NCBI GenBank assembly: GCA_046563655.1
Contig: CM102290.1
Coordinates: forward strand, 124,001-188,000
From: Yuukianura sp. NJ FZ-2021
Taxonomy: Eukaryota
Reading direction: 5' to 3'
Length of the DNA stretch: 64,000 nt
Below, piece by piece: positions 3,176 to 53,562 of the stretch; position 1 is the first letter of the stretch; every line of letters starts with the position of its first letter. Below the pieces are notes generated by a model. It was not told where the DNA came from and did not search any database. It worked only from the letters and a program-made list of their open reading frames with translations. Position numbers and translations under genes: made by a program.

Positions 3176-6625
<3,450 letters not shown>

Positions 6626-9826: not shown

Positions 9827-20430
<10,604 letters not shown>

Positions 20431-20682: not shown

Positions 20683-21970
20683 CTATGTCATGAGTGGACC
20701 ACTTCTGCACTTCCCTTCCCTCTTCCCCTTCGTCATGTGGTGGCTCAAGTACTTGACAACATCTCCAGCAGCATTCCTTTTCGCATCTCTAAAAGTCTTG
20801 CCCTCTCCGAAGAAGACGAGCGGAGTGTCAAAGGTCAGTTGGACCAGGATCTGATGCTCCTCGTTCGTCGACTTGTCTTCTGAGTCAATGTACATGGCCT
20901 CAAACTTCTGCTCAGTCCCAAGTTTCTTCACGAACAAGATGGGGTCATCTGGCCAGAAAGAGGGGTCACGCAGGGAATCAATCAAGGGCCCACTCATCTC
21001 TCGGTAGTCCACACATCCTGCATTTCCAGTTGTCGTTTCTCCTTCTACTGGCTTTGGCTTCTGACTCTTCTTTCTCCGATTTCTCCTCTTGGCACTACTC
21101 TTCTTGGAAGAGCGCAGTCTCTCAATGATCACATCGTCATCGTCTTCGTACACTCGAGCAGTGGACTTGACGAGGGGCATTGCCTTTAGTCGCTGGGCCA
21201 TGTTGTGAGCTGACGTTCTTTTGGCCAACTTCTTGGACTTCCCTTTCCCTATTTCCACAAATTGGTCACCCACATGACACGCCATCGCAAACAGTCGCTC
21301 GTGCGGCAGACCTTCTTCTCCAGCCACCTAAAAATGGAAAATGAAAACGAAATTAAAACGACAGGGAAGAGTTTTGATGATGTTTGTAAATTGAACTAGT
21401 AATTAAGATTAACCTCATATGTCGGTGGGGGGTACTTGAGCTTCATGCACAGTTCCTGGAGGATTCCAACTGGATTTCCGTCTCCTTCGACGTCTGCCCC
21501 CTTCTGGTCCTCAGCAGCAGCTTCAATGGCCAACAATGGCTGCTCTTCCAGCTCAAACAGTTCGTGTGGAGCTACAACCTCCATGGAACGCAGCATTGCC
21601 CTCGCCGAGTTGTGTTTCGCCTCTTTCTTCGACCGACCAGTTCCAGACTCTAGGCATGAGAATACTTACTAAAGGAGGACAGAACGTTGTTTGAACGTTT
21701 ACCTTCGTACACACTGCCCTTGTACTCCAGAGTGAGTCGATACTGGAAAATGGGTTCGTGCACAGCCCCTTCGATCTGAAGTAAATCGTACTTGGGGCTC
21801 ACGTTGCTCCGAGTGCAAATCTCTTGGAGCCATGACACAGGAGTTTTGTTGGCTCCACAGGAGTCCCCACGACTAACTACAAACAATTTCCAATTCATTA
21901 CTTCCACACCACTTTCTAAAATTGACATGAATTTTTGATTAAGATGCTTACTGGTTGGGATACGTGCCAT
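20683..21970 (-). CDS. loqs: Loquacious/TARBP2/PACT-like triple dsRBD protein (RISC-loading partner of Dicer)
   Basis: dsRBD1 KTPVSWLQE..IEGAVHEPIF..GTGRSKKEAKH; dsRBD2 NPVGILQELC..EEGLPHERLF..GKGKSKKLAKR; a divergent third dsRBD. Small exon 21970-21952 (MARIPT); a possible ATG-only exon at 22166-22164. Orthology to loqs versus a paralogue is not established. Confidence 0.85.
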
Positions 21971-22204
21971 CCTCTTGATTAATGAACCGATTGAAATTGA
22001 AGAGATGAGTGAGTATTGGAATTGAACAGTGTCTTCCAACCTCCGTCCTTTACTTGATTCTTGTAATTAAGACTATGCTCCAATGTGGACAGAGTTTAAC
22101 AGACAGTTAAAGTCAATTCAATTAAAATTAATTTCACCAACAATTAATTACGCTTGTCTTTACCATTGTTTTGATTTTGGATTCACAAATGTCAACAGTA
22201 GAAA

Positions 22205-22538: not shown

Positions 22539-24919
22539 ATGTTAGTGTGCAGCCCATTGATCAAAGACTGTGAACACTACAGCCACAAATGGCAGTGTAA
22601 GTCAATCTCTGCATCAAGCACAACTTTAATTAAATTAAACAGGACGATTACTTGTTTCAGTTGACTCTGGGCAACAAATTCCATCAACTACGTGTCCACA
22701 TCATCAGAGGGTTTCAACTTGGTCCAGCACTGGAATGGCTGATCAAAATTGGTCTTTCGGAGGAGGTTATGGCGACTGGAACTCAGAGTACTCACGAAGG
22801 AATGACGATTGGACCAACAGATCAGACACAAAGTAACTCCAGCACCTTCCATCACATAAACTAATGTCACATGAGGCTAATTTCACTTTTTGGAATGTTG
22901 GTTGCAGGTATTGTGCTGCTCCAAGAAAGATTGTCCCAATACCAGACAATTGGATGGCACCCGGCTCAACTTCTGACTTTAATTGGGACGGAAGTTCTGT
23001 ACCACCAAGGCCGATTCCTCCTCAGTCTCCGTGGGGCCAGCCTCAGCCTTATTACCACGACAGTGACGATTTTGGTACGAATGACGCTGTGTATCATGAA
23101 CCACCACCACATTATCCCAGTCAACATGACGGATACTACCCTGATCATAATCATTCTGCTCCAGCCTCACCAGAACCCATCCCAACTGGCTCCACCTCCA
23201 CGGTGTCCAACACTGCAGCGGAGAACGACAAAGTCCAAAGTAGCCAAGACACACACAAACCCAAACCACTCGCTGCAAAGTTAAGAGAGAGTGTGCTTGA
23301 CGCACGGTCATATAAGGCCTTCGGCTTACCCAACCTGGATGATGACCTCAAAGCCAAGGTTCAAAAATCAATCAAGTCAAAGGAAGGAGATGGCAAGTCC
23401 AAGAAATTCGTTAAAGTAGTTGGTCGGAGGGGCGACAAGAAGAAGAGGCCAGGAGTGATTAAAGTTAACAAACCTTACTATGCCAACGCTCCGAAAGGCC
23501 CTCCTCAGCACCTCATAACCTCCACTCCAACTTCAGACCAATCTCAGTTGCCCCAACCACCGCCCAAGGTCAAGGTATTTGAGCCTCGTCACAGAGAAAT
23601 CAAAATGACACAACCACACTTTGAAGATCATCATCGCAAGGCTACCAGTAGGAAGAAGCTTCAAAACCGGGAACCTCCACCTTCAAAACCAGTTCAACAC
23701 CGGGAACCTTCAAATTCCAAATCTGTTCAAAACCGGGAACGGGAAGAGCCAAGTTCAAGTTCAAATTCCAAATCTGTTCAAAACCGCGAAGGTTCAAACT
23801 CCAATTCGAAACCAGTTCAAAAGCGGGAAACTTCCAGTTCGAATCCGAAATCTCAAAACGGCGAATCTTCAAATTCAAATTCGAAATCTGTTCAAAAGCG
23901 TAAATCCTCCAACTTGAATGCGAAGGGAATTGAATCGGATGAATTACCATCCAGGCCTAAATCCGTTTCAGCTCCTCCTCCTCGAGAAATAAAGATGACT
24001 GAACCACACATTGAAGTTCGTCGTCGCAGAATGGACAAAAACAAAAAGCGTCAGGCGGGAAAAATTGCACTCAATTTTCCTGTCCCAAAACCCAGCCAAG
24101 GAAATCGTCCTGCTCAATCCCGCCAAGTTTCAGATTCAATGGAAAGTGAGACGACTGAGACTGAAGTACATTTGGATTCTGAGTCAGAACCTTCTCCTGC
24201 CAGGGAAATTGGAAAGTCAAAACGACCACAAACTGAACCTGCTCAACCCAAGCGTGTAGCAATGAAGAAGAGAAAAAGAAGTGGAACTGCCGAACCGGAG
24301 CGACGGCAGGAACCGAGTCAAGTGGAGCCACAGAAGAAAGCGAAGGTGGTGCTGCAGAGACTTCCTGAGGCCTTCTTAATGGCAAATGCTCGTGTGGAAG
24401 CTACGCGGTTGGACTCATCGGGGAAAAGTAGGAGTGTTCAGCAACCGCCGCCTCTCAAACCCACCAAGGTCATTGGACCGCGTGATGTCATTGTCAATCA
24501 AGGTCTCATGAAGATCAAGATAGAGTCGGACTATATTCCACCGGCCACAGTCAAAGAAGAACCGAAGGAGAGCATTACGACAGGTACTTTACTTTCTCAT
24601 TCTTTTTTCATCGCCAAAATTATACAAATTCAAAGTTTTAAAATATTTTTGGGCAGGTCCTAATGAACCAGAGGAAGTTGAAGGTGAACTTTTCGGTGGA
24701 GCTTTAGCCACTATGGGCCCACCGACTACTGAAGGAAATGCGGGAGGTGAATCCTTTTCTAACGCAGTCGCAGCACCTAACTTGACTTTGCTGAACGATA
24801 AGGACGGCCATGGAACTGTACCTGTCGGGGGTCAATTTGAAGGTGACGGAGTGGTTGGAAGTGTGGCCAACATGGGTGTACTCATTGTGAAGCAGGAGTA
24901 CTGCGACGGAGGACTGTAG
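22539..24919 (+). CDS. Uncharacterised, largely disordered P/S/K/Q-rich protein
   Basis: In-frame GT-AG exons about 22539-22596, 22661-22832, 22909-24583, 24658-24919. Long open exon; tandem SNSKSVQNRE-type repeats (23660-23910); duplicated REIKMTxPH; basic NLS-like KKRKR. Start could instead be 22735. Confidence 0.75.
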
Positions 24920-25312: not shown

Positions 25313-26796
25313 GTAATCACTAATTGGGGACTCAAGTCCCACCAAAACCAGTTCGTTAGGGTGGAATTGTGGACATTTGTGGTGGGAATTCCTTGTGGCA
25401 TGTCACATCCTCCATCCTGTCTCAACATCTAAATCTCAATTAAATTAACAGGGATTTAGCAACATAAATTCAACATGAGTTGCATCATGTTCAAATGATG
25501 AGAATGGAATGATCATGCTGGTTGGACATGGAAATGGAAGTGACCTCGTTTTGAAGCTGAAGTGGGTGTTCCAGAATAGGCTAATTGTTCCATTGTTCTA
25601 CAAGTGGATACCCATGTGATAAGTGACATGTCACGTTGACTCAAGATGTCATTGTGTCCACTGACAGGAGACAAGATGAGTTGAAGAAAAGTCACGGAAT
25701 TGCATCCACGCCAACTTGTTCGCTTATTGGAATTCTTGCATCTCGGAATGCCATTCGTCGGAAATATGGTCTGATCCTCCGAAAAACAGGGTTCCCAAAA
25801 CACCACTCCCGAATTCGGGCATTCTCCAATACCCACCTTCCCCTCTCTCCACTATCCTCTTCTTTTTGTCTTAATTTCAATAATCTCCATTTATAATTTG
25901 AAACTTTAACAAAAACATAAGTTGCAAAAAGCTCAGCTTTTATTGTGCTATGAGGGGAAAACTTTGAAAAAAGTGGCTAAAGGACTAAATTGGAGAGAAA
26001 AGAGAAAGTTGTGCGGAGTGAAAGTTGATTGATGTGAAAGTATTGATGTGATGATTGACTGTTTGAGAAGGAAAAGCGAGTGATGATGTTGGTTGTGAGG
26101 ATTGGGTGACCCTGGTTGTGTTATAGACTTTTGAGATCAATAGGATCCGAATCAATATGACAGGCGGGAGTGAAGTCACTCCAGACACTCACAGGATAGT
26201 CCCGCTTCAGAACCATGGAGGGCAAACAGCCTCACAAACTATACTTTTCAACGGATTCGCAAAATTAACTTTCTATAAAAAAACACGCAAAATAAACTAA
26301 GTGGATACATCCGTACTTAATTAGTTTGTTCTCAGACCTTGATAATTGGCATTTCTAAGACTAGCGTAAGTTTTTCCATGTTCCATGTGAATTGTGAATG
26401 AATCCTCAAACTATAAAAGGTAAGGTAATCATAATCAACTTCACAGTATACAGAAACGTTTTGACAACTTTGGAGTTGTAATTCTCCCCTTTTTACTTGT
26501 CGCAATCTTTTCTCACTTTTTAAAAATGTTAAAGGTAAAATTGAATTTGAAAGTTGGGTGCGTAGCCCCCTCATAGAATTGTCTAAAGTAGAGTGATTTT
26601 AGTGGGTGCTAAGATCCGTGGTGTCTCCCACTTTAGTCTCACTTTCCGTTCGTGCGACAGCGGCACACATTCTGCTCAGTCTCCGTTGCGGTTAGAACTT
26701 GTACCATTTTTTACTTATTTCAATTACTAATTAACTTTGGTCTTGATCTTGGTCTTCTGTGACTGTAGGCCACTCCCTAGGATAACCTGCCTCCAA

Positions 26797-29247
26797 ATGG
26801 ACTCCAACTCCGACATTGTCCAGTTCTTTGCCAATCGCTCAGTATTCATCACGGGGGCCACTGGATTCGTGGGCAAGGCGACCGTGGAGAAGCTCCTCCG
26901 CACTTGTCCAGGAGTCAAGAGTGTCTATGTCCTCATTCGACCCAACCCCAAGCCTGGCTCAGACCCCGATGTGAGGTCAAGGCTCTCAGAACTAGTGGAC
27001 AACTCGGTGAGTCATTCCTACACAAAAACTATAAACATTGACACCCAAACCGGTTTTTTATTTGTTCCCACTCATTCCTTCGTCACACTTTTTAGTGGTC
27101 GTGTTCATTGGACCTTGGACAAGATGCATAACTTTAGTGGTTGTGCATAAGTGTTCTCTTATCTCACCACAAAAGGAACTGGACTCTTTGTCCATTAACA
27201 CTTCATACGTCAACAGACTCACTCATCAACTGTCAGTTTAGGATCTAATTTAACACATGTAATTCCAAATGAGATCAAAGATCAGGAGTTCTTAATTGAG
27301 TGGCAATGTGAAGTCACATAATTTTATGAAGGATTGTCTCAGTCTGTCGATTTTGAGTATAAAAAGTGTGACTGAACTTCTATTTTTACCCAAAGTCATA
27401 ACTCTTGTTAATACTGTCCACATGTTCTAATATGTTAATAATTTGTAGCTGTACGAAACTTTGCGACTGGAGAATCCTGATATTCTGAGCAAGATCATTC
27501 CTATTGCTGGTGATATCACACTGCCGGATCTTGGGATGAGCCAACAAGATCACAACCTCCTCTGTCAAGAAGTGTCCGTCGTCATTCACTCCGCAGCCAC
27601 CGTCAAGTTTGACGAAAAACTCAAGTTGTCAATAAACGTCAATGTCAACGGAACCAAGAGAATCATCGACCTGTGCAAGCGCCTCACACACCTTGTCGTA
27701 AGACACGAAAATAAAACTATTGGTCTCACTTTGAGTCTCTGACTTGTGTGACTTTTAGGCGTTGGTCCATGTGTCCACGGCCTATGCCAACTGTGAGCGT
27801 GACGAAATCGAAGAAGTGATTTATCCTCCGCCGGCGGATCCTCATAAGTTGGTCCAGAGTGTGGAGTGGATGAACGACGACATTGTGAACACAATTACGC
27901 CAGAGTAGGACTAATTAAGCTTAATTTCACAACTAACAAAACAGTTTTGGATTTTAAACTTTGATTTAAACTTTGTATTTGAGGTTGATTGGGAACAAGC
28001 CAAATACTTACACGTACACCAAAGCCTTGGCGGAGCATCTTCTGAGTGAAGAGAGTGGAGTTCTACCCATTTGTATTGTTCGGCCCTCCATTGGTAACAA
28101 TCATGTTTAATTGTTATGTCAATTCATTTTCAATTTCAATTCAATTGTTATGGAATTCATTTTTTGTGTACTTTTTTCCAGTGACGGCGACATGGAAGGA
28201 ACCAGTGGCTGGTTGGGTGGACAACATCAATGGACCCACTGGACTCATCGCTGCTACTGGCAAAGGGATCCTCAGAACCATCCTCTGCCACCGGACAAAA
28301 GTGGCTGATTTGATTCCACTCGATTTCCCTGTCAACCTCATTCTGGCCTCAGCCTGGCACACAGCCACAGCAAGGTAAAGTACACAACGCTTTAAACTTT
28401 TGAATGTAAAAATTGAACATTGTTTTGAATGTAAATTCATTGTTTTGAATGTTTTAGGCCGAATGGAATTCCGGTGTACAACTGCTGTTCGGGAGAGCAG
28501 AATCCGATGCTGTGGGGAGACTTGGAGCGGTGGGGCTACGCCCACTTAATCTCCAACCCCCTCAATGACGTCATGTGGTACCCCGGTGGGTCCTTCAAGT
28601 CCAACCGCATCTGGAACAACATCAACGACTTCTTTGTTCACTACCTCCCAGCATACCTCCTCGACTTGGCTGCAAGGGCTGCCGGCAGGAAACCAATGTG
28701 AGTTGGATTTAGAATTAGGATTTAAGAGTGGTGGCTTAATTTCTATTTTGTTGTTTAGAATGCTCAAGGTGTATCAAAAGTTAACCAAAGCCACCACTTC
28801 ACTCCAGTTCTTCACGACGCGTCAGTGGAAGTTCTCGACGTCCAACATGACGCTGCTCTACAACCAACTGTCGTCAGAGGATCAGAAGCTCTTTAATTTC
28901 AACATCAAGGAAGTCAACTGGCCCAACTACATTGGGAAATACTGTCTCGGCATGCGGAAGTATGTGCTGAAAGAGGACATCTCCACTCTCCCCGCAGCAC
29001 GCAAGAACATGAGAAAGTAAACACAAATCATGCCAACTTATTTCTAAATCAACTTTGATTTATTAGTTTTAACTTTGACTTTGTTTTCAGGATGTACTGG
29101 GTTCACAAGTTGACTCAATTTTTCCTGATCCTCCTCTTCTGGCGTGCCATCATGTTCCGTTCTGAGACTGCGCGTCAACTGTGGTACTTTATGTTTGGGA
29201 TGGTTCTGCGCATGTCCCGAATGCTCCCGATTGGGGAATCCATCTAA
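26797..29247 (+). CDS. Fatty acyl-CoA reductase (FAR1-like, Male-sterility/NAD_binding_4 family)
   Basis: [11 protein letters not shown]ossmann motif, [19 protein letters not shown], catalytic [21 protein letters not shown]-terminal Sterile domain and TM tail ending PIGESI*. Confidence 0.95.
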
Positions 29248-32167: not shown

Positions 32168-32434
32168 CAAGGTTTGTTGACTTTGATTTTCTTTATCAGG
32201 TTGGGTAATACCTCACGTTTTTTTTATTTTTGCAAAAAAAAAAGTGTCTTTTTATTTCAGGGCATTGTAGTCATTACAATACAGCCAAATTTTTTAACTT
32301 TTTCATACGAATTGGCACCAATTTTTTGGATTGGTACTAAAATTGGTAGCAATTTTTTTTCGTGTTTCTGTCAACAATCTAGGTAGTGCCTAACCTGTTA
32401 AAGAAAATTAACTTTTCGTTGTCAAGAAACCTTG
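32168..32434. mobile_element. MITE (267 bp) with CAAGG termini and 8-bp TSD (P-element-like)
   Basis: TIR CAAGGTTT(G/C)TTGAC; perfect TSD GCTCTTTG (32160-32167, 32435-32442). Confidence 0.85.
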
Positions 32435-33043: not shown

Positions 33044-34906
33044 TCAGTTGAGCCCCACCGGACTCTCGTCTATGAGTTCCTGCTGAACGTGGGGCGTGTC
33101 TGGTGGGTCCAACTGACGGTGGGACTGCTGTGGCTGCGGATGAATCCAAGTCCCACTTATCCAAATGCTTCTTTCGTCCTCTTCTCCGGGAGAGTAGCGA
33201 GTCGACTTTTTCTTTCTTCCGCTGAAAACAAAATTAAAATTTTGAAAAATTAAGGAAAAAATTGTTTCTAGGATTTTTTTTTAACTTGAGTTGAAGTTTT
33301 TCGTGGCTCTCAACTGGAGGTAAAATGTTTATGAAGTTTTCCAAATCTTTTGTTAAAGTGGCTTCGTTATAGCCATACAAACTCAAAGTTTTTAAAAAAT
33401 CAAACCATTTGAAAGAATACTTTTCAAAAAAAATTGGAGTTTTTTGTTATAAGAAGAGCAGGAAAAGTTGGAAGTTTTTTTAGGTGATTAATAAATGAGA
33501 AGAAGACGGAGAAAGTGTTTGCTCAAAGAACAATCGAGAGAAGAGAGAAAGTTGGGATTGATTCAAACTGTTGCTCGTGGTGGGTCCAAGGTGGGGCTGA
33601 ATTTTTAATGGTGGGGCTTACATCTTGTCAAAGTCAATGAGTCCATAGCCGGGTGGGGCCAGTTCCCTCCCACGGCCCCACTCTCGCATCCGATGCTGTC
33701 CGTACTTCTGGAGGGCCAACAGCGTTTCCAGCTCTGCTATCCGCTGATCAGACTGTCTCTTCTGTCGCTTCCTACAAAAAACGAACCAATCAGTGAACAG
33801 AACCATTAACTCCTTGGCGCCAAATTCAAACATTTCAAATTCTATAGACAACGACAACAAAGTACACACTTTCAATAAGAAATGAAGGCGCTACTTTTCA
33901 AAATAACAACTCAAGTACTTTTTCACTTTTGAGAGACTCCTTCAAAAAAGTTCAAAAGGAAACAAAACAAAAGGAAAATACAAAAATCGGCAGTCACAAT
34001 GAGCTTCTAATTTCTTAAAATTCAAATTTCCCGGGCAATTATTTTTTCCCGCCTACGTTCAAAATATTTTGCCGTGTTTTGACACGTGATTTTGGAAATT
34101 GGATTTCCCAAAACCAGCGTTTCAGAGTTTAGTTGAAAATATAACAAAACTGCGAAGATAAAGTTGTTTTAACAAGTTGGTTTAAATTTCCTTCAAAATT
34201 TGAGATCGGCTGGAAGGGATTGTGGCTGGAGCGGTTTTGGTTCAAAATGAAAAGCGTCTGAAAAGATGACTTTAGATGAAATTGGGTTTGGATAATAAGT
34301 GAAGAGGTGGAACTTTCACTCTCCAAAATTCATGACCACTTTTTAAAAAAAGAAACAAGAATTGAAGTTTTGAGAGATGAAAGTGAATTTTTGGAGGAAT
34401 GAGTTTGCATAATGTGGATGTTCACTTGTGCTCTCGTGGGAACTTGGTCCGTTGTGTTCAAAAAGACCCGCCAGATATGGAATTCCAAATGGAACTTTAA
34501 GCTAATTTACCTCACCAAAACCACATCTCCCTTTCACTCACTTTAACCAAAGTTACACTTACAATCACCTTAGCCCAATGAAAATCAAAGGTCAATTCAA
34601 AATCACAAAACACACATTTTTAATTTAAAAAAAAAGTTTCTAAAACAAAAAATTGTAAAATTGGACTTTCTCTTTGGTGTAAATCCTGATTTTGATTAGA
34701 ATCTTTTCACCACCAAAATCACGTCAAATCCCACCTCCCGACAAAAGTGGAATAAAAATCAAAACTTAAAGTTGTACTAAAACTGAAAACTTTTTGTAAA
34801 ATTTTGGGAATTGAAGTACTTACAGTTCCGTTGGTCGTGCGGAGACGCAAGAAAGTGCGATGAATAAAATGAGTCCGATGAAAAGTAGTTTGGTGATGCA
34901 GTTCAT
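33044..34906 (-). CDS. Neuropeptide precursor, insect parathyroid-hormone-like (iPTH/PXXXamide) family, 136 aa
   Basis: Exons 34906-34824, 33771-33622, 33221-33044 join in frame. They give a signal peptide MNCITKLLFIGLILFIALSCVSA, an RQKR cleavage site, the peptide QSDQRIAELETLLAL...GYGLIDFDKI, and a G-RKKK amidation/cleavage site. Confidence 0.88.
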
Positions 34907-35181: not shown

Positions 35182-38100
35182 GCTCTCCACCACCCCTTCC
35201 AAGCCACGTAACTTCACTTTCGTTTTTACTCTAAAAACGTTTCTCCAAATTCAAACTTTGCACAATCATTGACAGTGTCACGCACTCGTGACCTCGGGTC
35301 ACCCACGCCTCCACACGCCCACATTCTTCTACAATTTAACATTCCGCTCCAATTTTAAACATTTTACTTTGAATTCCTCAAAATTAATCCAATTCCGCCC
35401 TGTCTTAAAATTTTTTTTAGCGTTTTGCAACTTTGCAAAGTTTCAAACCCTTGAAACCAAAGTTCAAATTTTTGCAGAGTTAAGAGGGTTGCGAATTTGC
35501 AGAGTTGCGGATTCGGGAATTGGGAGACGAATGATTTGCAGCGTGTTGAATTCTAGGCAGAGGTCAGACTCTGGGTTCCCAGAGTCCTTTTTGCGAGTGT
35601 GTGCAATTTCGAGGAAAAGAGTAAACGTAATGTTGAACCAATTCCACCAAGGTCACTTCCATAATTTCCTCATGATTCCTAAATGGAAAAACATGAGACT
35701 CTCATTGTTTTTGTATGAATTCATCTGGGTTCACATGATCTCTCAAAGATTCGTTTCTCAAATCAAAAAAAGCCCAGCGGCTTCTTCGTGTTGGGGTGAG
35801 TCAGGTTTTTTTCAGAATCACAATTCTCACAAATCTTGGAATCTTCGAGATGCCAAAAATTTGGCCCTATTTTCACTCCCCTCACTTTTGTGCGTCAAGC
35901 AAACCTTCATCCTCACAAAAATGTTCGTCTTTGTCCAAAATCACAAGAAAAAATGCATGACTTGGCTACTTCTTTTTTTTTTGTTCCGATTTCCCCAAAA
36001 TTTTAAGTTTTTGACTCATCTTCATCACCTGACAAAATTACTTCCTCCGCTGTCAGTTTAAGTACCCCCCCCCTTGTTCTGTGAATGGTTGATGGGGGGG
36101 GGTTGGAATGAATGAAGAGCGAGTCATGGTCCAAGACCGCAGACAGGGGGGGGTTGAGAAAGGGGGGGGGTCAATGGCCGGGGATTGCCTAGTTGCGGAG
36201 GGGGAGGACCCGTTTTTAATTGATTTCCTCACCGAAACGTTTTTCGTAATGGTTTTCAGTGGAAGTGGCCAGCGGATGAGGTCACTTGAGGGAAAAGGCA
36301 GACAGTCGCCAGTTGCATCAGCATTTGAAAAAGTGCACGATAGCTTAAAAGTTGTAACTTTGAAGATGAAGAGTGCGTGACGACTGATGAGTCAGAGATT
36401 TAGTGGACTTGACCTTGCCACTCCATTCCAAGGGTGTTAAACTGTGTTGAGAGCCTAATCCTCTGAATCTGTTGAATGTTTAGTTGAATCCCCTCTAATG
36501 TGGCCATTGACGCGTCCTTGGATGAAACCATGCCGTGGAGGTGGTTGACTTTAAAACGTTTCCTCAAATGAATGAACCTCATCCAAAGATCATCCACCTC
36601 CAATCACGAGATCACACAAAAAATTATGTCTCGCTCTTCTTAAGTTCCCATAATGCTCCGTCCAGGAAATCATCTCTACACTCACACAACTACATCTCTT
36701 CTTTTATTCTCAAAGGACTTGAGGCTACGAATTAACTACTTCAAATTAAATAAAGTTCACATTAACTTACGCACTTACCCACAAACTCACAAAAAAACAA
36801 CTAACGCAACACTTTTCTTCAAATTTCAAACCACACAGGAAAGTTTTTACAACAAAATAGAGAAGGAAAAAACACTTTTTGGGAAAATTTTGTTTTTCAT
36901 TTTCTGTTGAATTGTAATTAGTTTTTTAGAGTTATTTTGGAGTATAGACGGATGGGTTTGGTTCAAAGGTGAGATTTTTCGTCCAATTTCATTGTCACGT
37001 TTACTATATAGTTACTCCCTCCAATTACTTGCAAATGGAAAGGTGAAAACAAAATGTTCGTTAAAGATTGGAAGAAACGTTAATTTGTGTCTAAAACACT
37101 TTGAATTTGGAGAGAAAGGTTCCACGGAATTGAGTGTTTGAATGAGTGGATTTTGATGGATTTCCATTTGGATTTATTTTAAAAAGAGAAAGCGACTTTC
37201 TCCCAAAGAGCAAAATGAGGTTGGGAAAGTCTGAACCTGACTTTAAGCTCAGTCACATAATTGTGTCCTCTGTTGGAAATGTGCTTTTTAAACAAAAGTC
37301 CAACTTCTGTGAAAGTTAAGTGGTTGTTAGGCTGTTGGTAAGGCATTCCATGTTACAGTTTCCAAATGTAAAAACAGGGTTGTTTCCTTGGTCTGCACTC
37401 ACGTTCTGCCTTCGTTAAGGAATGGAGGAAATTCCTCCTGCGGTGGGATTGAATTACGCCGGAATTTTGAGGAAGGAAGGCGTATGTTCCTGTTATGCCG
37501 GAGGGGCTGATTTGAGTGATGGAGGTCAAAGGTCACTGGAGTTACCATGGAAATGGTGCCTACCTGTGCCAAAGTAGAGCTGGAGGCTCTGCTTTTCCAA
37601 TAGTCAATTGATACCGGGATTGGAGGAAATGTAACCCCAGTTCCAAACGACACGCAAACTTTCACTTTTCAATTCAAAGGAAACTCGATCCTGCGAATTT
37701 CACTTTTTACAAAAATTACAAAAACACTAAAGTCTCCCTTGGATTCGGCCAAAACACAACAATACTCGTGTGGGAGTGTGGCCACAGATACACTCAAACT
37801 ACTTTTGAATTCGTAAAAAAGAATGAAAAGAGGAAATTTAAAAATTTAGAGATACAATTTTTTAAAAACGCAATAACTTAGGAGAAGACATGGAAGAGGA
37901 ATAGTTTATGAAGATGTACAGTGTGTTTCTAAAGTTGAATAGTGGAGAGGGTGGAGCTTTTGAGTGTTGTTCACTCTACTCAATTTAGTTTCGATAATCC
38001 ATAACTTTCACCAGAGTTACAAAAACTCTCGACAAAAATAAGAGGTCAAGAGCACTTTCATTTCATAAAATTGAAAGTGATACATGTTGTAACTTTGTAA

Positions 38101-39492: not shown

Positions 39493-40670
39493 TTAAACGC
39501 TTTCACGAATTGGTGGTTCGTAGCCTTGTGGTTTGTCCGTCTTCTCCCCCAAGTCATCAGTAGTTCCGCTTCCACCGTCTCCGTGCAGGTCCAGCAGTTT
39601 GGAGATGTCGAACCTCGGCTTCTTCAACACCTTCACCTGGAAACAAAGTCAACAAGTTAGATTTGAGCCAGAAACCAACTTTGTTGCTAAGCAACAGTTA
39701 TAAACTCCTTGGAGACTTACTTTGCGGATATAGACGTCGTGGAGAGGATAGATTCCGTGACAGGCCTTTTCGATATCCTTGGCGATTGAATCTGGGATAA
39801 GTTTGTTTACTACTTCCTTCATGTCGTTCGTCCCAACTTCCTTCGTGATCGTGTCCACCATCTTCTTCCTGATAGCCTTCACCTGTAACAACAAATCAAG
39901 TGTCAAATATCCAAATGTTAATTAGTTAATTATGATTAATTAGTGATTTAAAGTTGAGATAATGACTGTACCTGCGTATGTTGGGCGTAGCACGTCTTTT
40001 TCTTGGATGCTTGATCTTTGTGGGTGTAGCCAATACAGAAGACACGGAGCAAGTAGCCATCTGTTGTCTTGACATCAGTGTTGGCTTCGATGAGAGTCTG
40101 CCACTTCTTGACCATTGAGCGCAGTTTGTCAGTGGTCAAGTTCATTCCATGGAAGTTTGTCAGTACGTTGTGTCCCTGTACATCTTCTGAGATGAGCTTG
40201 AACTTCCTGAATGATCTCTCAGCATCGTTGTCCGACTGCAAGTCTGCCAAAGACACTTCGAACACTCGGCCCTTCAAACCCTCGGAAGCAATCTCTGTTC
40301 CACACAAAAAGAACATTAAAATCATTTCATGAAAATTCACTTCCAGTTTCTTACTTGTTCCTTGAGTTCTGTTGACCAAGGTTTTGCCTACTTGCCGAAC
40401 CTTGAAGATGGATGGTGCCTTGACATCATACCAGTCCTTCCGTGTGAAAGGATCAATACTGCAAATCACAACATAATAATCGATTACTCACAACTGCAAA
40501 CATCATGCCCAACATTTACCTTACGAAATCATAACGTATTACCCGAGTACCGGTTCATTTTCATACTTTTAACTTTGAACAAGTTGATAGAAAATAGTGA
40601 CTACTTACATCTTTTTCTTGGCTCCTTTCTTGCCTCCCTTGGACAAGCCCTTGTTCTTGCCAACAGCCAT
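39493..40670 (-). CDS. RpS3A: 40S ribosomal protein S3a (eS1)
   Basis: [57 protein letters not shown]-terminal [10 protein letters not shown]. Confidence 0.98.
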
Positions 40671-40699
40671 CGTTAATCAGTTGAGTAACTAATTGATCT

Positions 40700-40712
40700 G
40701 GAACGAAAGGAC
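40700..40712 (-). promoter_or_regulatory. TCT/5'TOP-type initiator of RpS3A
   Basis: Pyrimidine tract TCCTTTCGTTCC about 35 nt upstream of the ATG, as typical of ribosomal protein genes. Confidence 0.55.
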
Positions 40713-41056
40713 TAACAATTAAAAAGATTCTCCTGCTGATGACTGCACGCCGGAATCTCCTTTTGCACAAAGTGAACTGGATGTCGTGCTCCTGCCCTCC
40801 GCCGTCGTCGCTTCAATCTCTTCTTCAAAGCCCCCTTTTCTCAAAGGCCAATTTTAGAGTTATGCGCCCTCTTTCCTCAAAATGAAATAATAAACAAATG
40901 ACACTACTTTTCAATAACTCACCATTAAATTCCACAAGTTCAATTGAACAAACTATCTATGAATACTTACATGTAACGATGTAAAGTTTAACATAGTATA
41001 CAATATGTTATGCGAATTGGTTTTCATTTTTTTGTTGTATGCAAATTAGTGGTGCA

Positions 41057-41955
41057 CATAGATGGGCGTCCTCACTCAAAAAATCCTCAAAGAGGACGAA
41101 ATCCTCAAAGAGGACACGATTTTGGATGAGGATTGAGTATAGAGGATTTGAGGACCGATTGCCGGAAAGAGTATAGAGGATTGAAGTTTTGAGGATGGAC
41201 TTTGAATGAGGATAGAGGTTTTGAGTATTTAAGGATACAGTATGAAGTGAGGATAGAAGATTAGAGTAGTTGAGGATTCAAATTTACTTGAGGATTGAGT
41301 ATTTGAGCACTCCTCAATTTCGAAATTCCTAGCAAATTGAGTCAAATGAGACATCCCCAGACATCCCGGTAACAACCGCGGTTGTTTCAAAGTTGAGCAT
41401 GAGCTTTGATCCTATTTCTTCTCTTCACTATTATTCTTTTGTATCATCAGTTGAAACTGCCAATAGTATAGTCCGAAGTGGTGTGTATCTTATTTAAATT
41501 AGTGAACAACATGTCGTCGAACTTAAAACAGGCAACACTCGAGTTTGGTCCTGTCGTGATTAATGACGAGGAAGTACAAGAAATCGAATCTTCGTCATCT
41601 GCAAAAGTTATCAACCGTCTACGTTACAAGAAAGTTACTGGTGGTGTTCCTGACGCTGTTAGGTTATGTTAATTAAATTGAATATTAGTCTGAAATAAAA
41701 TTGACTTGTTGAACCAAACTTTATATATAGTTATTTTCACTTAATTGAGGATAGAGGTTTAAGGATTTGAGGACATTATTGGGATTGAGGATAGAGGATT
41801 TGAGGTTTTAAGGATTGGGATACCAATGAGGATGAGGTTTTGAAGATTTGAGGACTAGAAATCGAGTGAGGATAGAGGAGAAGAGTACTTGAGGATCGGG
41901 AATCGATTGAGGATAGAGGATTTGAGGACGTCCTCTTTGAGGATGCCCATCTATG
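41057..41955. mobile_element. Internally deleted hAT-like DNA transposon (899 bp)
   Basis: TIR CATAGATGGGC(G/A)TCCTC; perfect 8-bp TSD GTGGTGCA (41049-41056, 41956-41963); dense subterminal GAGGA(T/C) arrays at both ends. Confidence 0.9.
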
Positions 41956-42141
41956 GTGGTGCATGACTATGTTCTAAAGAAAAAACCGGCAAAGGAGGCC
42001 TCTTACTTTTTGTCTCAAAATTTACACGAGATGACGCTCTCACAGCGTCACAATTAATTCTTTTCTAAATTGTGTAAAAAGTATCCAAAGTAACTTTAAA
42101 CATAGCTTCGAATTAACTTATTTTAATTACTTTTGAACATA

Positions 42142-42847
42142 CCCTAATTCCTCGCCTACAAGCCGCACTCGCGTATAAGCCGCACCCAGAAATTTTCAAA
42201 AATACCTTGATAGCGCAAAAACGCAAACTTTAAAGTTAAAAAGGACAGATTAAAAACTGTACAGATTACTACATTTTCAGGTTAATTGTACTTTCATCGT
42301 GCAACTCCATTTTTTAATTTTATTTTTCTAAAATACCTTATGGACCCCTGACCATGAAAAAATATTTTTTTTTACTACACTCTCAAAAACTGAAATTTTT
42401 AAAAAAGTTTGAAAATTGAAATGTCCCCATAAGGGCTCATGTCAATTTTTTCTCAATGTTTTACAACTTAACTCGGTTACGTTTTAAAGAGCTTAAACAA
42501 TGTTGGTAGGCTAGGTTAGGTTAATTTTTTTCAGAAAGAAATTATAAAAATCCGAGTTACCCGGTGAAAGTAAAATTATTCCCAGTTTCCTCAAAACATC
42601 TTTTATTTAATTATGCACGAATTCGTACAAATTTGATTCGCCAGACACCAGAACCGTGGCAAAAATGCTGGATTTGATGAATTAACATTAGATTAAAACC
42701 GTTTTAAATAGGATTTAGAACATTTACCGGCAATTCCGACAGATTTTTAACAAAATTCTTCAGTTTTCAGCGAAAAAAAATTATTTCATTTTCAAAATTT
42801 TTCGGAAATTCTCAGATAAGTCGCGGCTTGTATGCGAGGAATTAGGG
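42142..42847. mobile_element. Non-autonomous Tc1/mariner/pogo-type element
   Basis: TIR CCCTAATTCCTCGC(C/A)TACAAGCCGC flanked by TA on both sides; internal TTAGG-like tract near 42505-42523. Confidence 0.85.
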
Positions 42848-43787
42848 TATTCTGCACGAAGAGAAATTTCTTCTTCAAAATTGTGAACTACTGCTAATCA
42901 ATTACAAATTCGACTGCAACTCAACGGTTGGTGTGAGACGGATTCAAAACCACCAGCGGGAAATTAAAAAAAAGTTTTGCTAAATTTTATAACGAAAGTT
43001 TTGTCATGCAAAATTAAGTATTGCCATTGCTTTTCGCTATTTTTAAAATTGCAAAATGGCGAATCAATATGCAAATTCCACAAATGACGCCTTTAGTGCG
43101 AAAATTATATCGAACAAGACTAGAGTAATTGGAAAATTAACGTTCCATTCTCCCTTCAAGTGTTATTAGTACTTAAATTATTGTTAATTACTGCTTTTGT
43201 AATTGAGGAAATGCCATTCGAAGTAAAAAAAAATCCACGAATCGTCGTTGTTTACGTTTGTGTAAATGCCATTGTGCATAGCAAAACATTTGATTACATG
43301 GAGTTTGTATAGAATTTTGGTTTTTAGCATTGATTTATTCAAAACACGACATTTGCTGAATGTGATCTTCATCTTCCGTGAATCTGTCACCTGTCCAAAA
43401 ATAACAACAAACAACTAACCTACCAGCATCTGTCTGGATTCCCTCTTGTGTACTTTGTGTTGCTAGGCACCTCTTCTGTAACTCCAGCCAATATGGAAAT
43501 GCTTTCACAAGGTAAGGTCAATTACTTAACGAAAATCACAATACTAAATGATCAATTGAGTTACTTACCGTTAGTTTGGTTTTTGTAGTATCCAACGTAC
43601 CAAGTGCAAGTAATGGATGGATGAAGGATGGACAATGTTAGATGGACCCTCAAGTTGCTCAGTCTAGCTGTTCCGTTTTAGCCACTCTTAGTACCTCCTT
43701 ACCACAGTAACAGAAAGAGGTCGCAGATCTCCTGGAAGGACACAGTAGTATTATTACAAATCAATCAAGTATAACCATCCTGCCACT

Positions 43788-45227
<1,440 letters not shown>

Positions 45228-45696
45228 ATCCAGCCACTCAATTTGGAGGGTTTTGAATGCTGTTATTTATGCAAAGTGTCCAACGATATGGTATTTTATG
45301 TGAACAATCCGCTTGTCCACTCCACGATTCGTTGTTCAATTAAAGTTGGTCGTCGTCTCATGTTGATTTGTGAATAAATTTGGAAGGCGCTAAGGTGATT
45401 CAATTGCAAGGGAGCAATAGATGTCACTGAGGTCGAGATCTCACCATGCGGTTTATTCAAGTGCACAAGAACAAGGGAACGAAATGCGGAGAAATCCATG
45501 CATCATGCACCACGAGCGAAGTCACTCCTGTTCAAAAGCGGAGCGGCAAAACTCCAGATGATCCTGATCGGAATTTAATTGAAATTAGATTTTTAACATT
45601 TAATTTGATTTGTGGTAGTTAATTTAAATTTAAATTGACTAAATTTAAATTAAATAAATAATGGTTTAAGTTATCCAAATTTTAAAGTTAAATCAC

Positions 45697-46040
45697 GAAT
45701 ATCTAAAATTTCTTCTTAGTGAAATCTAGGTAAGTCTCTGGAATGTCTAAAATTTCTGCTTGATGCAATCTAGCTAAGTCTCTGAAGCCCAATTTATACT
45801 TTTCGTTTCCCTGACGTTTCCCAGGAAAAAGTTTGTCGTAGAGCACGATTTTAATAAAAGTTTCATTACATTTTTATTTAAAATTTCGTTGTTATAGACG
45901 TCTCTTTTATTAAAATCGTGCTCTACGACAAACTTTTTCCTGGGCAAAGTCAGGGAAACGAAAAGTATAAATTGGGCTTGAAATATCTAAAATTTCTGCT
46001 TGATGAAATCTAGCTAAGTCTCAGGAATATCTAAAATTTC
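45697..46040. repeat. About 44-bp minisatellite interrupted by a MITE
   Basis: Unit gaatatctaaaatttctgcttgatgaaatctagctaagtctctg: two copies left of the insertion, one and a partial copy right of it. Confidence 0.85.
45786..45978. mobile_element. PIF/Harbinger (Tourist-like) MITE, 193 bp
   Basis: About 75-bp TIR AGCCCAATTTATACTTTTCG...; 3-bp TSD TGA (45783-45785, 45979-45981). Confidence 0.88.
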
Positions 46041-46747
46041 CATTCGACTAGTAATTAGGATGAGTTATGATAATTTTTACAATTTTTTTTATTTTTTCAT
46101 GTTTTTGAATATTTTATTTAACACAGAACTGAAAAAAACTTACACCTGCCAGAGGCAGGTTGAGGTATTTAAAGACGTATTGAAAAAATTTTTTTAAATC
46201 ATATAAATGGGTCATTGTATGATAATTTGTAATTAATTATGGTAGGTGGTTTGTAGACTAAAAATGTTGCTAAGGTAACGCCGCACGCTGGAGGGTGCGG
46301 TGCTAAACGAGGGAAACCGCCAAACCGTTGCACAACTGTGGTTCATGTGAAGATTGAAGGAAAAGGAGGAAGATTCTCTCTTTCTTCTCCTGCGTCTTGA
46401 CAGAAGAACAACGATTTACAGAGGTCACCTCCTCCATTTCCATTCACAAACCGATTCATCACGAGAATAATTCACGTAAGTTCTCAGTTCATTACTAATT
46501 ACTTGGACAGTATAGTCATCAATTGGTTTCAAGTTACGGGCTGGTCAAAGTCAATCATAATCGTTGGGTTCAACTTGTTGATCTCATCTTTTTGGTTAAT
46601 CATCGAAGATGGAGCTGACATCATCACCAAACGAAAGTAGTTCGTTGAGTCATTCATGTTTCGGTCATTTGGTTGGACTGTCATGCTACTTTATAAAGAG
46701 ACAATGTGGACACCGTTTTTAACATTGTTCTTTGCTGATTGCAGAAA

Positions 46748-48439
46748 ATGGCGGATGCGGAGAATAACATTGTGGCTCAAGAGGACGGTGATGATTTGGA
46801 AGATATCGAAGTGGAAGTAAAAGAAGAGGGGCATGACATGCACGACGATGAATTTGATGGTGACCCAACGGACTTTATTGTAAGCACTCACTCTAATACA
46901 GTTATTATCCTCTCTTCTTTCCATTCAACTTAAGATTAACTTTGAGTATTTGTCAATGTAGAATCAGTTAGCCCCAGAAGTACGGCGTCGAGTTCTGGCT
47001 CTCAAAAAACTTCAGTTGGATTGTACGAATCTAGAGGCTTCTTTCTATGCTGAGATGCATGCCCTCGAGGTCAAATATGCTCCGCTTTATAAACCTATTT
47101 TGGAGAAGGTGAAACCGTCAACATTGTATACAAGTTTTAGTTTCCTGTTTTAACTTTTGTTATCTGCTGGCACAGAGAAATCAAATCACTAACGGTGAGT
47201 ACGAGCCGAATGATGCTGAGTGTGATTTCCCACACGATGAGGACGTTGCTACCAAACTCGAGGAAATGAAGTTGGATCAGTAAGGAAACCCTCACTTTAT
47301 ATTCCTTTCTACTTCAGTTCTTTATCTTTGACTGTTGCTTTTCAGGACTGGGGGAGCAGGGGAGAAGCTCCAAGGAATTCCCGACTTCTGGCTTAAGATT
47401 TTTCGAAACGTAGACATGCTGGAGTGTCTTACGGAAGAACCCGATCTGCCCATTCTCAAGCATTTGACTGACATTAAGGTTGAACTGTCCATTCAACCAA
47501 TGGTAACCACAAACTTTCTGTTCGATCATAAGTTCTCTAGAAAAGATGGATGCTAATTGTAACTTTTGTTCTCAATTTCAGGGATTCAAGTTACACTTTC
47601 ACTTTTCGCCAAATGAGTATTTTACAAACTCTGTCTTGACAAAATCCTACTTCATGAAGTGCGAAGTGGATCCGGAAGATCCATTTTCATTTGAAGGGCC
47701 AGAAATTGTCAAATGCCAAGTAAGTAACCAATAATAATAATAATAAATATTAAATTAAATAATCACTCTCCTCATCCACTGAAGCTATTCGTGCCATGTA
47801 GCACCTCAGTCAGCGATGGAGAGTAGACAAAAGGCAGGGTTCATTCTTACGGTTTTTCACTTACAATTGATCTACACACTAGAATGAACTCTGTACAAAA
47901 GTGTCTCATCTTTCCTTTTCGTTGACTAATCGTTTGTTGTTACAGGGGTGTGCGATTAACTGGAACCCAGGCAAGAATGTGACTGTGAAAGTTATCAAGA
48001 AGAAGCAAAAGCATAAACAGCGCGGCTCTGTTAGAACAGTGAGTAAAACAGTGGAGGCTCCGTCTTTCTTCAACTTCTTCAATCCCCCACAAGTGAACCA
48101 GGGCGAGGAGCTGGACGAGGAGATTCAGCTCAAGCTCACCAACGACTTTGAGGTAACATCCACACATAATGTCCAATGTTGAATAAGGAATTGATGAGTG
48201 AATTTAAATTTCAGGTTGGTCAGTACATTCGTGAGCGAGTTGTTCCGCGTGCCGTTCTATTCTACACGGGAGAGGCTCTGGAGGAGGACGATGATGAGGA
48301 GGAGTACGAGGAGGAGGAGGAGGACGAAGAGGAGGAGGAGGAGGATGACCATGGGGGGAAACATGTTCCGAATCGGAGTCGCAAATCTCCAGCCCAGAGT
48401 AAGGTCCCTCAACAACAGCAGGAGTGCAAGCAGCAGTAA
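46748..48439 (+). CDS. Nap1: Nucleosome assembly protein 1
   Basis: VRRRVLALKKLQ, GIPDFWL, FHFSPNEYFTNSVLTKSY, SFFNFF, PRAVLFYTGEA, acidic tail encoded by (GAG)n, C-terminal ECKQQ*. Confidence 0.97.
47765..47900 (+). ncRNA. Intronic box H/ACA snoRNA
   Basis: Hairpin 1 (ACTCTCC/GGAGAGT and ACTGA/TCAGT stems), H box AGACAA 47825-47830, hairpin 2 (GCAGGGTTCATTCT/AGAATGAACTCTGT), ACA at 47895-47897. It is sense to the host and sits in an intron about three times longer than its neighbours. Confidence 0.85.
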
Positions 48440-49351
48440 CTCGAGCTCTCTGTCATGTCAGGGTGAGGAAAGGCATTCGACTATTCTAAAAAAGTAAAAA
48501 GTTGCTCACGGAATGGATTTCCTCACTGAGGTCACACAGACTCGCATAGTCAAATGTTGCGATAGAAGGGACATCATATTTATCGCAATTCTTCATTCAT
48601 TTTTTCTAGATACCAACTACATTACCTTCCAATATCATTTTTCTGCTAGTGGTTTGTGAATATTTAAATTGAAGCGGCATTTTAGCCATTTAAAAAAAAA
48701 TATGTGAGTTTCCCTCGTGGATTAAATGAAGGTTTCAACGTTCTTCCAAAATCGGGAATTTCTAAGTCCCGACTTGAATTTTATGTGGATAACGAGATAT
48801 CTGTTATCTAATTTTGCTTAAGGTTGGTCGATATCCAGAATTTTGTAAGATGTTGGCGGTTTTAGAATGTTTTGAATGCTGTTGCTGGGGTAACGTGGTG
48901 ACTTTTGAGCAGAACGTACTCTGTCCCATACTAATCCATTCCGTGTGATCCACTTGACGTTTGACACTGATCTTTGCTCACCCTGGTTACTTCAGTTGCC
49001 TTGTTTTGAAAGTGACTAAAATGTGATGGTTACACTTTTGTTGCAGTGCTTAGTGAGTGGAAGGCAGCACGCAACACCTAAAACATTAAGTGTCATCAAC
49101 TAACTCCAGTAACTACACAACTTACTTAATTCTACCCCATACTCACCTAAATTATCAATGTGAACCAGTTTGTGTTGGGGCCTACAATAAATTCTTCAAT
49201 TCACTTTTCTCTAACTTCCAATTACAACTTTACTTTTCTACTTTTTACTTTTAACAGTTTCGTATCACTTCAGTTTGGTCGATTTTACATTGAGATTTGA
49301 TTTTGATTAGATTTTTAGAAATTTTTTGGTTTGTGGACTTGAGTTTGTGTT

Positions 49352-52334: not shown

Positions 52335-53562
52335 GATGAGACGAAGTCGTTGACCTCAAACGATGAACAAAGGAGAAAGGAGTGATATTTGTGGAAACGA
52401 TAGTGTCAATGTCAATGGACAGAACTCAAATGATTCTTTTAGAAAACCAACACCAATTATTTGTTTTTTGAGTGACAAGAGAAAAGGCGACACAAAAATT
52501 GAGCTGTGAGGAGACAGGCAAATGTATTGATTTTTCGGTTTTTCGGTGTTTTGCCCTTGCGTCGCGGGGTCAACCAATTCCATTTCATTTTAGCAAGCCA
52601 CGGAGAAGCACCGCCCTCTTTTGTCAGCATCTGAAAGCCCAATATACAACAAATTCTTTTGAGGTATGCACCTGCCAATACAATACCTTCATAATTTAAT
52701 TTATTAAAGAATAACAAACGCCGTAAGTAAGTAGCGAAAGGAAATTCAACGGGAAAGGACCTTGCTAAGTCCCATGAATATAAAAATTTTCACTGTGAAC
52801 CAAATCTTGCTAATTTCCTTGAGTATCATAAAATTTATTTGGCACGAGAGTTCTTAAAAAAATACGCTTATAGGTGGAGGAAGTATCAGGACGATTAAAC
52901 GGATCTGGAGCGAAGCCCCAGCAAGCATGCACAGCATACTTGTTTTTATTATTATTATTAATAAAATAAAATAATATTAAATATGATATGTCAATAAATT
53001 TTATTGACAAAGATTATGCAATGCGAGGCGCATAACTCTGGTGGTGGAATTTTGTTTTTCTGGGAGTTTTAATTTTGAATTTGCCACCAAATCACCCGCG
53101 CGCCAGAATTTGTTTCATTCGCAAAAACTATTTACAAAAAGAAACCCTCCCCACAATTTCGATTTTTGCATGCTGATCCTCGTCGTTTTTTTTTTCGCAT
53201 GGAGGAATTTGGTTGTAATCGATAACAATTTGGCAACAAACACAACCTATATAAACAAAACGAAATAACAAACATCCATCAGCCACCATCAATCAACGTA
53301 TAACCTTTGGTCATAGAACAACTGACTCCATCTTCAATCGCTTCTGAGGTAAGCCAACTTACGATTTGTTTTGACAGTGGTAATGGCCTATAATCAATCA
53401 GTTGTCACTTATCCGGGTTATTGTTGAATCCTACTAGGTTCCGAGGCATTTGAGACACAAAACCTCATTTCCGGCTTAATCGTTACATACAAATGAAAGT
53501 ATTGAATTGACAGTTAATTGGAAAGTAGCCTTTTTAAAGTAACTTGTGGGCTTGACAAGATA

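What the first reader, a model, noticed from the sequence alone, without database searches (positions are those of the whole stretch)
33044..34906. iPTH-family neuropeptide gene with a non-canonical amidated C-terminus
The gene is split over three small exons, so the ORF track shows only a fragment. Predicted mature 45-mer: pQSDQRIAELETLLALQKYGQHRMREWGRGRELAPPGYGLIDFDKI-amide, between RQKR and G-RKKK. The SDQRxAELETL and G(F/Y)GxxD motifs match my recollection of the insect PTH-like peptide described in Tribolium. Here the family-defining Pro of PXXXamide is Phe (DFDKI-amide), and the middle is Arg-rich with possible extra cleavage sites. It may be a lineage-specific variant or paralogue with different receptor selectivity.
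Basis: partly seen in the sequence, partly recalled or inferred. Interest (0 to 1): 0.75.

Follow-up and report, generated by a model that had tools for sequence, protein, structure and literature searches.

The report
Ordinary springtail iPTH hormone gene
This is a real, intact gene for a known arthropod peptide hormone (iPTH), and the supposedly unusual ending of the hormone is the usual form in springtail-type relatives, already listed in the paper that named the hormone.

Summary
A three-exon minus-strand gene with GT-AG introns encodes a 136-aa precursor: signal-like N-terminus, KR site, 45-aa peptide, then Gly plus four basic residues. It is an iPTH/PXXXamide gene, by homology from a springtail. 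The claimed novelty fails. Xie et al. 2020 call the Pro at -4 only 'mildly conserved', and their S1 Table lists two Orchesella cincta genes, both with Phe there. Phe stands at -4 in 14 of 14 springtail-type proteins retrieved and in 6 of 6 related loci; an Allacma fusca protein ends in the same five residues. The middle is no more basic than in relatives and has no dibasic site. The genome shows one credible copy of the peptide gene and one PTH-receptor-like gene, so a paralogue with its own receptor is not supported. Splicing, processing and receptor activation were not shown in this species. Two look-ups of the scan's earlier findings gave no iPTH note. Verdict: ordinary new member of a known family.

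The parts
34824..34906 (-). Coding exon 1: start codon, signal-peptide-like stretch, first spacer residues
   Evidence: an equivalent hydrophobic exon with a phase-2 GTAAGT donor in 5 of 5 related loci examined
34838..34906 (-). Predicted signal peptide, residues 1-23 (cleavage point inferred, SignalP not available)
   Evidence: Kyte-Doolittle 9-residue mean up to 3.34; coordinates
33772..34823 (-). Intron 1, 1052 nt, GT-AG, phase 2; no alternative peptide exon found in it
33622..33771 (-). Coding exon 2: N-terminal cleavage site and 44 of the 45 residues of the peptide
33756..33761 (-). KR convertase site in front of the peptide
   Evidence: invariant in alignment A2
33221..33755 (-). Predicted mature 45-aa iPTH (last codon split by intron 2); N-terminal Gln; predicted helix over residues 2-32
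33630..33632 (-). Phe codon at position -4 of the peptide, the state seen in all springtail-type relatives retrieved
33222..33621 (-). Intron 2, 400 nt, GT-AG, phase 2; same position in 5 of 6 related loci, the sixth has no intron
33044..33221 (-). Coding exon 3: end of the last peptide codon, amidation and cleavage signal, C-terminal extension, stop
33206..33220 (-). Gly plus four basic residues: amidation donor and C-terminal cleavage site
   Evidence: called strictly conserved in PMC7224569
35175..35180 (-). Candidate TATA box about 270 nt upstream of the ATG (consensus match only)
32223..32256 (-). Two candidate AATAAA polyadenylation signals about 790-820 nt past the stop (consensus match only)

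Best explanation
This is the ordinary, apparently single-copy iPTH (PXXXamide/QSamide family) neuropeptide precursor gene of a springtail. Shown in the sequence: three exons join to an open 136-aa precursor with a hydrophobic N-terminus, a KR site, a 45-aa peptide and Gly plus basic residues. Inferred from standard neuropeptide processing: secretion, convertase cleavage at both basic sites, trimming, C-terminal amidation from the Gly, and cyclisation of the N-terminal Gln to pyroglutamate. Inferred from the beetle and tick studies: the full-length amidated peptide, largely helical in its conserved N-terminal part, activates the PTH-receptor-like class B1 GPCR (one such gene lies on contig C6) and acts as a brain-gut hormone in moulting, cuticle maturation, feeding or fecundity. 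Phe at -4 is the normal springtail state of a position that varies across the family.
For: Gene model with canonical splice sites and open frame. Best full-length matches are springtail proteins: Orchesella cincta 59% over 97 aa, E 6e-34 in a local comparison; that sequence is printed as an iPTH precursor in S1 Table of PMC7224569. Phe at -4 in 14 of 14 springtail-type proteins, in 11 of 12 library hits (the twelfth is a locust protein) and in 6 of 6 metagenome loci. Same exon-2 donor in 5 of 6 loci; the sixth (L008) reads through without introns into the same five C-terminal residues and G-RRKK. Purifying selection: 12 synonymous and 0 replacement codon differences over 26 conserved codons against L003. 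One PTHR-like locus: best solved-structure match human PTH1R, E 4e-19; best database matches springtail receptors at 60-62%; one strong locus in the genome. Full-length iPTH activates PTHR-like receptors in beetle and tick.
Against: No transcript, peptide or receptor assay from this species was seen. Both peptides I saw reported as assayed on receptors (beetle, tick) carry Pro at -4, so activity of a Phe form on its receptor is inferred. Most of the 14 relatives are unnamed, so their springtail origin is inferred; only 4 carry names (Orchesella cincta, O. dallaii twice, Allacma fusca), and some are near-duplicates. The genome search scores only the best candidates and gives lower bounds on copy number. 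Orchesella has two genes, so loss or non-detection of a second copy here is possible. The physiological role is borrowed from beetle and tick; RNAi of the beetle peptide gene itself gave no phenotype.
Confidence: 0.92

Rival explanations
1. A divergent paralogue or species-specific variant with its own receptor selectivity: a canonical Pro-type iPTH exists elsewhere in the genome and this Phe form has split off to a different receptor.
For: Orchesella has two iPTH genes, many insects have two or more receptors, and the tree shows a separate well-supported group of Gly-rich springtail-type peptides (99/99), so paralogues exist in this lineage. Pro is the majority state in arthropods (35 of 44 entries of S1 Table, counted by eye).
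Against: Both Orchesella genes and the Gly-rich group also have Phe, so Phe does not mark a paralogue. Two protein searches of the genome found only this locus as a credible match; the other hit, L002, scores 5.1 bits, below the window's best background segment. One PTHR-like locus only.
Confidence: 0.04
2. The Arg-containing middle is cut further, giving a shorter N-terminal peptide (possibly amidated at the internal Trp-Gly-Arg) and a separate C-terminal fragment as the real products.
For: Four single Arg in the 17-residue middle; Trp-Gly-Arg is shared by 4 of 15 rows (window, P0001, P0004, L003). True internal dibasic pairs occur in 4 of 14 relatives.
Against: The window's peptide has no internal dibasic pair. 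The motif is absent from 11 of 15 rows. The basic fraction of the middle (0.24) lies inside the range of relatives (0.05-0.31). The tick peptide also has a basic middle and is active at full length. The most conserved residues lie at both ends, which fits one intact ligand.
Confidence: 0.07
3. The exon model is wrong or the gene is dead: intron 2 is retained or the locus is a pseudogene, so no amidated peptide is made.
For: Read-through of intron 2 gives a stop one codon after the exon, and several database proteins end that way. No transcript from this species was seen.
Against: Those truncated proteins are what intron-blind gene calling on contigs would give (inference); the DNA shows a GT donor at the same phase in 5 of 6 loci and a matching third exon in 3 of 5 (the other two contigs end early). 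L008 holds the joined form. Codon differences are almost all synonymous.
Confidence: 0.02

Closest known systems
Orchesella cincta iPTH genes in S1 Table of Xie et al. 2020 (PMC7224569); second entry = P0002, ODM97290.1
   Same: Same precursor layout, same first 19 residues of the peptide as the second entry, Phe at -4, G-RKKK, and a near-identical 8-residue stretch after the cleavage site.
   Different: The middle differs in sequence and is 4 residues shorter; the Orchesella second gene has an internal dibasic run, this one has none; Orchesella has two genes, one was found here.
Allacma fusca unnamed protein CAG7717015.1 (P0014) and its cluster representative P0005 / locus L008
   Same: Same last five peptide residues, followed by Gly and basic residues.
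   Different: Middle less basic (0.12 against 0.24 for P0005); 44 aa against 45.
Tribolium castaneum iPTH, ligand of Tc-iPTHR1 and R2 (PMC7224569)
   Same: Signal peptide, KR, single peptide with N-terminal SD, Gly plus basic residues, C-terminal extension.
   Different: The beetle peptide has Pro at -4, starts with Val rather than Gln and has a hydrophobic middle; the beetle has two receptors.
Ixodes ricinus iPTH (bioRxiv 10.64898/2026.06.22.733765)
   Same: 41-aa amidated peptide with the SDQR-AELETL core, a basic middle and a YG-hydrophobic-hydrophobic-D end; activates PTHR-like receptors at 52-63 nM.
   Different: Pro at -4; two receptors.
Lophotrochozoan PXXXamide / QSamide peptides
   Same: Reported orthologues of iPTH; many have a non-Pro hydrophobic residue at -4, Phe in one Capitella transcript.
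   Different: Those genes often splice alternative peptide exons, some with Cys pairs; no alternative exon was found in either intron here.

Membership tests
iPTH / PXXXamide neuropeptide precursors | N-terminal signal peptide | tested here: met
   Hydrophobic core, Kyte-Doolittle up to 3.34; by hydropathy only, SignalP not available
iPTH / PXXXamide neuropeptide precursors | Dibasic site before a single mature peptide | tested here: met
   KR at 33761-33756; feature stated in PMC7224569
iPTH / PXXXamide neuropeptide precursors | Conserved Ser-Asp near the peptide N-terminus | tested here: met
   Residues 2-3 of the peptide; invariant in A2
iPTH / PXXXamide neuropeptide precursors | Gly plus basic residues after the peptide (strictly conserved per the paper), then a C-terminal extension | tested here: met
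   33220-33206; depends on the intron 2 splice, supported by related loci
iPTH / PXXXamide neuropeptide precursors | Sequence homology to published members | tested here: met
   72% over 92% of exon 2 to P0002, E 1.4e-10; P0002 is printed in S1 Table
PXXXamide in the original narrow naming | Pro at -4 | tested here: not met
   Phe at -4. The paper that defined iPTH calls this Pro only mildly conserved; 9 of 44 arthropod entries lack it (counted by eye), so it does not define iPTH
iPTH signalling system | A PTH-receptor-like class B1 GPCR in the same genome | tested here: met
   G000:C6 about 4.935-4.948 Mb, minus strand; assigned by best hits, no receptor tree was built
iPTH signalling system | The peptide activates that receptor | not testable with these tools
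   Needs a cell assay
iPTH signalling system | Spliced transcript and processed, amidated peptide present in tissue | not testable with these tools
   No reads from this species were examined; joined form seen only in a relative (L008)

The most novel reading that the evidence does not exclude
Springtails as a group fixed a Gln-start, Asp-Phe-x-x-amide subtype of iPTH, and their PTH-like receptor co-evolved so that it prefers Phe and responds poorly to the Pro-type peptides of insects and chelicerates. The sequences are in print, but my searches found no paper that discusses or tests this; it would give a natural pair for mapping how the C-terminus of iPTH docks on the receptor's extracellular domain.
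Probability: 0.2. Interest if true: 0.35.

Novelty: new member of a known kind. Interest (0 to 1): 0.12.

Why it matters
Little beyond annotation. It adds a correct gene model for a hormone that automatic annotation leaves unnamed in springtails (the Orchesella and Allacma orthologues are 'hypothetical' or 'unnamed' proteins, and Pfam gave no match at its cut-offs). It also shows that Phe at -4 is the common state across springtail-type sequences. A genome with apparently one ligand gene and one receptor gene would be a simple system for testing iPTH function in a wingless hexapod, since the main beetle phenotype concerns wings.

Tried and rejected
Pfam on the three exon frames: nothing at curated cut-offs, two weak coiled-coil-type matches at E 0.12-0.15. 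Second copy at L002 (G000:C8 11.84 Mb, E 0.59, 31% over 32 aa): rejected, 5.1 bits against the family profile, no QSDQR core, frame stops before any C-terminal motif. Two further paralogue searches got no answer from the machine; a third query was answered and found only this locus. A profile search of the whole genome could not be run, so very distant copies remain open. Alternative peptide exon in either intron: none found by two simple scans. Widening the family sample with the locust protein returned only 2 locust proteins, so the arthropod-wide count rests on the paper's table. Synteny: no convincing match between flanks of the related loci and the window's other genes. Tree of peptides: 47 columns, 7 of 12 inner branches open, so it does not settle which Orchesella gene is the orthologue. 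Literature: three searches combining springtail or Collembola terms with iPTH or PTH gave 0 papers; the mussel study cited as Cardoso et al. 2024 was not found in the library and may hold assays of non-Pro peptides. No complex prediction was run.

Full report
Observation. The window holds on the minus strand three coding exons at 34906-34824, 33771-33622 and 33221-33044, separated by GT-AG introns of 1052 and 400 nt, both in phase 2. Joined, they give an open frame of 136 aa: a hydrophobic N-terminus (9-residue hydropathy up to 3.34), a short spacer ending in KR, a 45-aa peptide that starts with Gln, then Gly and four basic residues, and a C-terminal extension. A TATA consensus lies about 270 nt upstream and two AATAAA about 800 nt downstream; both are consensus matches only. 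A profile of 12 relatives that leaves out the window scores exon 2 at 95 bits and no other of 2823 segments above 5.9 bits.

Support for the exon model. No reads from this species were examined. Six related loci came from the metagenome collection (6 of 544 pattern matches confirmed). Five of the six have a GT donor at the same phase-2 point after the Asp-Phe-x-x codons, and three of those five show a third exon that begins with Gly and basic residues; the other two contigs end early. All five have an upstream hydrophobic exon with a phase-2 donor. The sixth, L008, has no introns and reads straight through the same C-terminal five residues into G-RRKK; whether it is a transcript assembly or an intronless copy was not determined. 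Over 26 conserved codons the window differs from L003 at 12 synonymous and 0 replacement codons, and from L004 at 15 and 1, as expected of a working gene.

What it is. Exon 2 found 3 proteins among 45 candidates in the word-indexed search and 12 in the full library scan. The named ones are from Orchesella cincta, O. dallaii, Allacma fusca (a cluster member) and one locust. The O. cincta protein P0002 is printed as an iPTH precursor in S1 Table of Xie et al. 2020, PMC7224569. Of that paper I read the abstract, sections 6, 7, 12, 17 and 21, passages, and S1 Table; its figures and one table page without text were not seen. The precursor meets the features the paper lists: signal peptide, KR, conserved Ser-Asp, Gly plus basic residues, C-terminal extension. 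That the window comes from a springtail is an inference from these matches and from the receptor matches below.

The Phe at -4. [quoted passage not shown] Counting by eye in S1 Table, 35 of 44 arthropod entries have Pro and 9 do not (Leu four times, Phe twice, Val twice, Thr once); the two with Phe are the two springtail entries. Among the proteins retrieved here, Phe stands at -4 in 14 of 14 springtail-type sequences (the two locust proteins were left out of that count, and P0013 has Val and Ala at that place in its two peptide copies). All 6 related loci have Phe too; four of them duplicate proteins already counted. Ten of the 14 are unnamed and some are near-duplicates, so the number of independent species is lower. 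Phe is therefore the common springtail-type state, is already in print, and does not mark this gene.

The Arg-containing middle. It has four Arg in 17 residues, a basic fraction of 0.24 against 0.05-0.31 in 15 rows, with 4 rows higher. The window's peptide has no internal dibasic pair, while 4 of 14 relatives do. A Trp-Gly-Arg that could in principle serve as an internal amidation site is in 4 of 15 rows. The tick peptide also has a basic middle and activates its receptors at full length (I read parts 1-2 of 5 of that preprint and passages). A single-sequence model of exon 2 gives a helix over residues 2-32 and a low-confidence tail (mean pLDDT 79.5); that long peptides of class B GPCRs are helical is recalled knowledge.

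Copy number and receptor. Two protein searches of the genome (98.7 Mb, 22 contigs) found this locus; the only other hit, L002, is at background level. Among 36 matches to the class B GPCR family one locus on contig C6 has human PTH receptors as its best solved-structure matches and springtail receptors as its best database matches at 60-62%. A search with the Folsomia receptor gave 7 of 18 matches at that locus (52-86% identity) and only weaker ones elsewhere (28-49%, E 3.6e-7 or worse). These searches give lower bounds, and Orchesella has two peptide genes, so a missed copy is possible. As far as seen there is one ligand gene and one receptor gene, which gives no support to a paralogue with separate selectivity.

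How it most likely works. Shown: gene structure, precursor layout, conservation, presence of a candidate receptor gene. Inferred from standard processing: secretion, cleavage, amidation, pyroglutamate formation. Inferred from relatives: activation of the PTHR-like receptor, as for the beetle peptide (EC50 63 and 413 nM) and the tick peptide (63 and 52 nM), and a role in moulting, cuticle, feeding or fecundity. Against over-reading: RNAi of the beetle peptide gene gave no phenotype, and the two assayed peptides I saw both have Pro. An iPTH precursor product was detected by mass spectrometry in Tenebrio (passages of PMC9552230). Orthology to lophotrochozoan QSamide and PXXXamide is reported in passages of PMC8557429 and PMC8398477.

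Novelty. New member of a known family. Three searches for springtail iPTH papers gave none, and the mussel study cited by the tick preprint was not in the library, so an assay of non-Pro peptides may exist that I could not see. The boldest reading left open is a springtail-wide Phe subtype with a co-evolved receptor (probability about 0.2, interest about 0.35). The scan's earlier findings held no iPTH note. Interest 0.12.

Noticed in passing
G000:C6 about 4,935,100-4,948,400, minus strand (L009, L032, L039, L040): PTH-receptor-like class B1 GPCR gene, the likely receptor; the only strong copy found.
   Followed up: partly
P0013 (Schistocerca gregaria protein), P0016: The locust precursor P0013 holds two iPTH-like peptides in tandem, with Val and Ala rather than Pro at -4. 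A larger departure from the usual layout than the window's gene; not checked against the literature.
   Followed up: no
P0009, P0011, P0012, L007:1976-2113: A separate, well-supported group (99/99) of springtail-type iPTH peptides with a Gly-rich middle and an Asp-Phe-Asn-Tyr end; may be a second paralogue group or another lineage. Not found as a second locus in this genome.
   Followed up: partly
L008:1-1315: Intronless form of a close relative (protein P0005, same cluster as an Allacma fusca protein); transcript assembly or retrocopy not determined.
   Followed up: partly
window 1046-2467 (+): Exons of a furry (Fry_C) gene.
   Followed up: no
window 3533-6928 (-): Choline/ethanolamine kinase exons (Pfam match at 3536-3925).
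   Followed up: no
window 11546-12034 (-): Peptidase_S74 (intramolecular chaperone) domain, probably part of a MYRF-like gene; the gene name is recalled.
   Followed up: no
window 20683-22066 (-): Double-stranded RNA-binding domain protein.
   Followed up: no
window 22837-24663 (+): 608-aa open frame, Ser/Pro/Lys-rich with short repeats, no Pfam match.
   Followed up: no
window 26731-29020 (+): Fatty acyl-CoA reductase-type gene (NAD_binding_4 and Sterile domains), the nearest identified neighbour downstream of the iPTH gene.
   Followed up: no
window 35273-36061 (+): 262-codon stop-free frame just upstream of the iPTH gene on the other strand, no Pfam match; probably non-coding.
   Followed up: no
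window 39948-59075: Ribosomal protein S3Ae (39948-40487, -), TMEM185-like (44118-44549, +), kinesin motor (51906-52355, -) and Nup98-96 (55661-59075, +).
   Followed up: no
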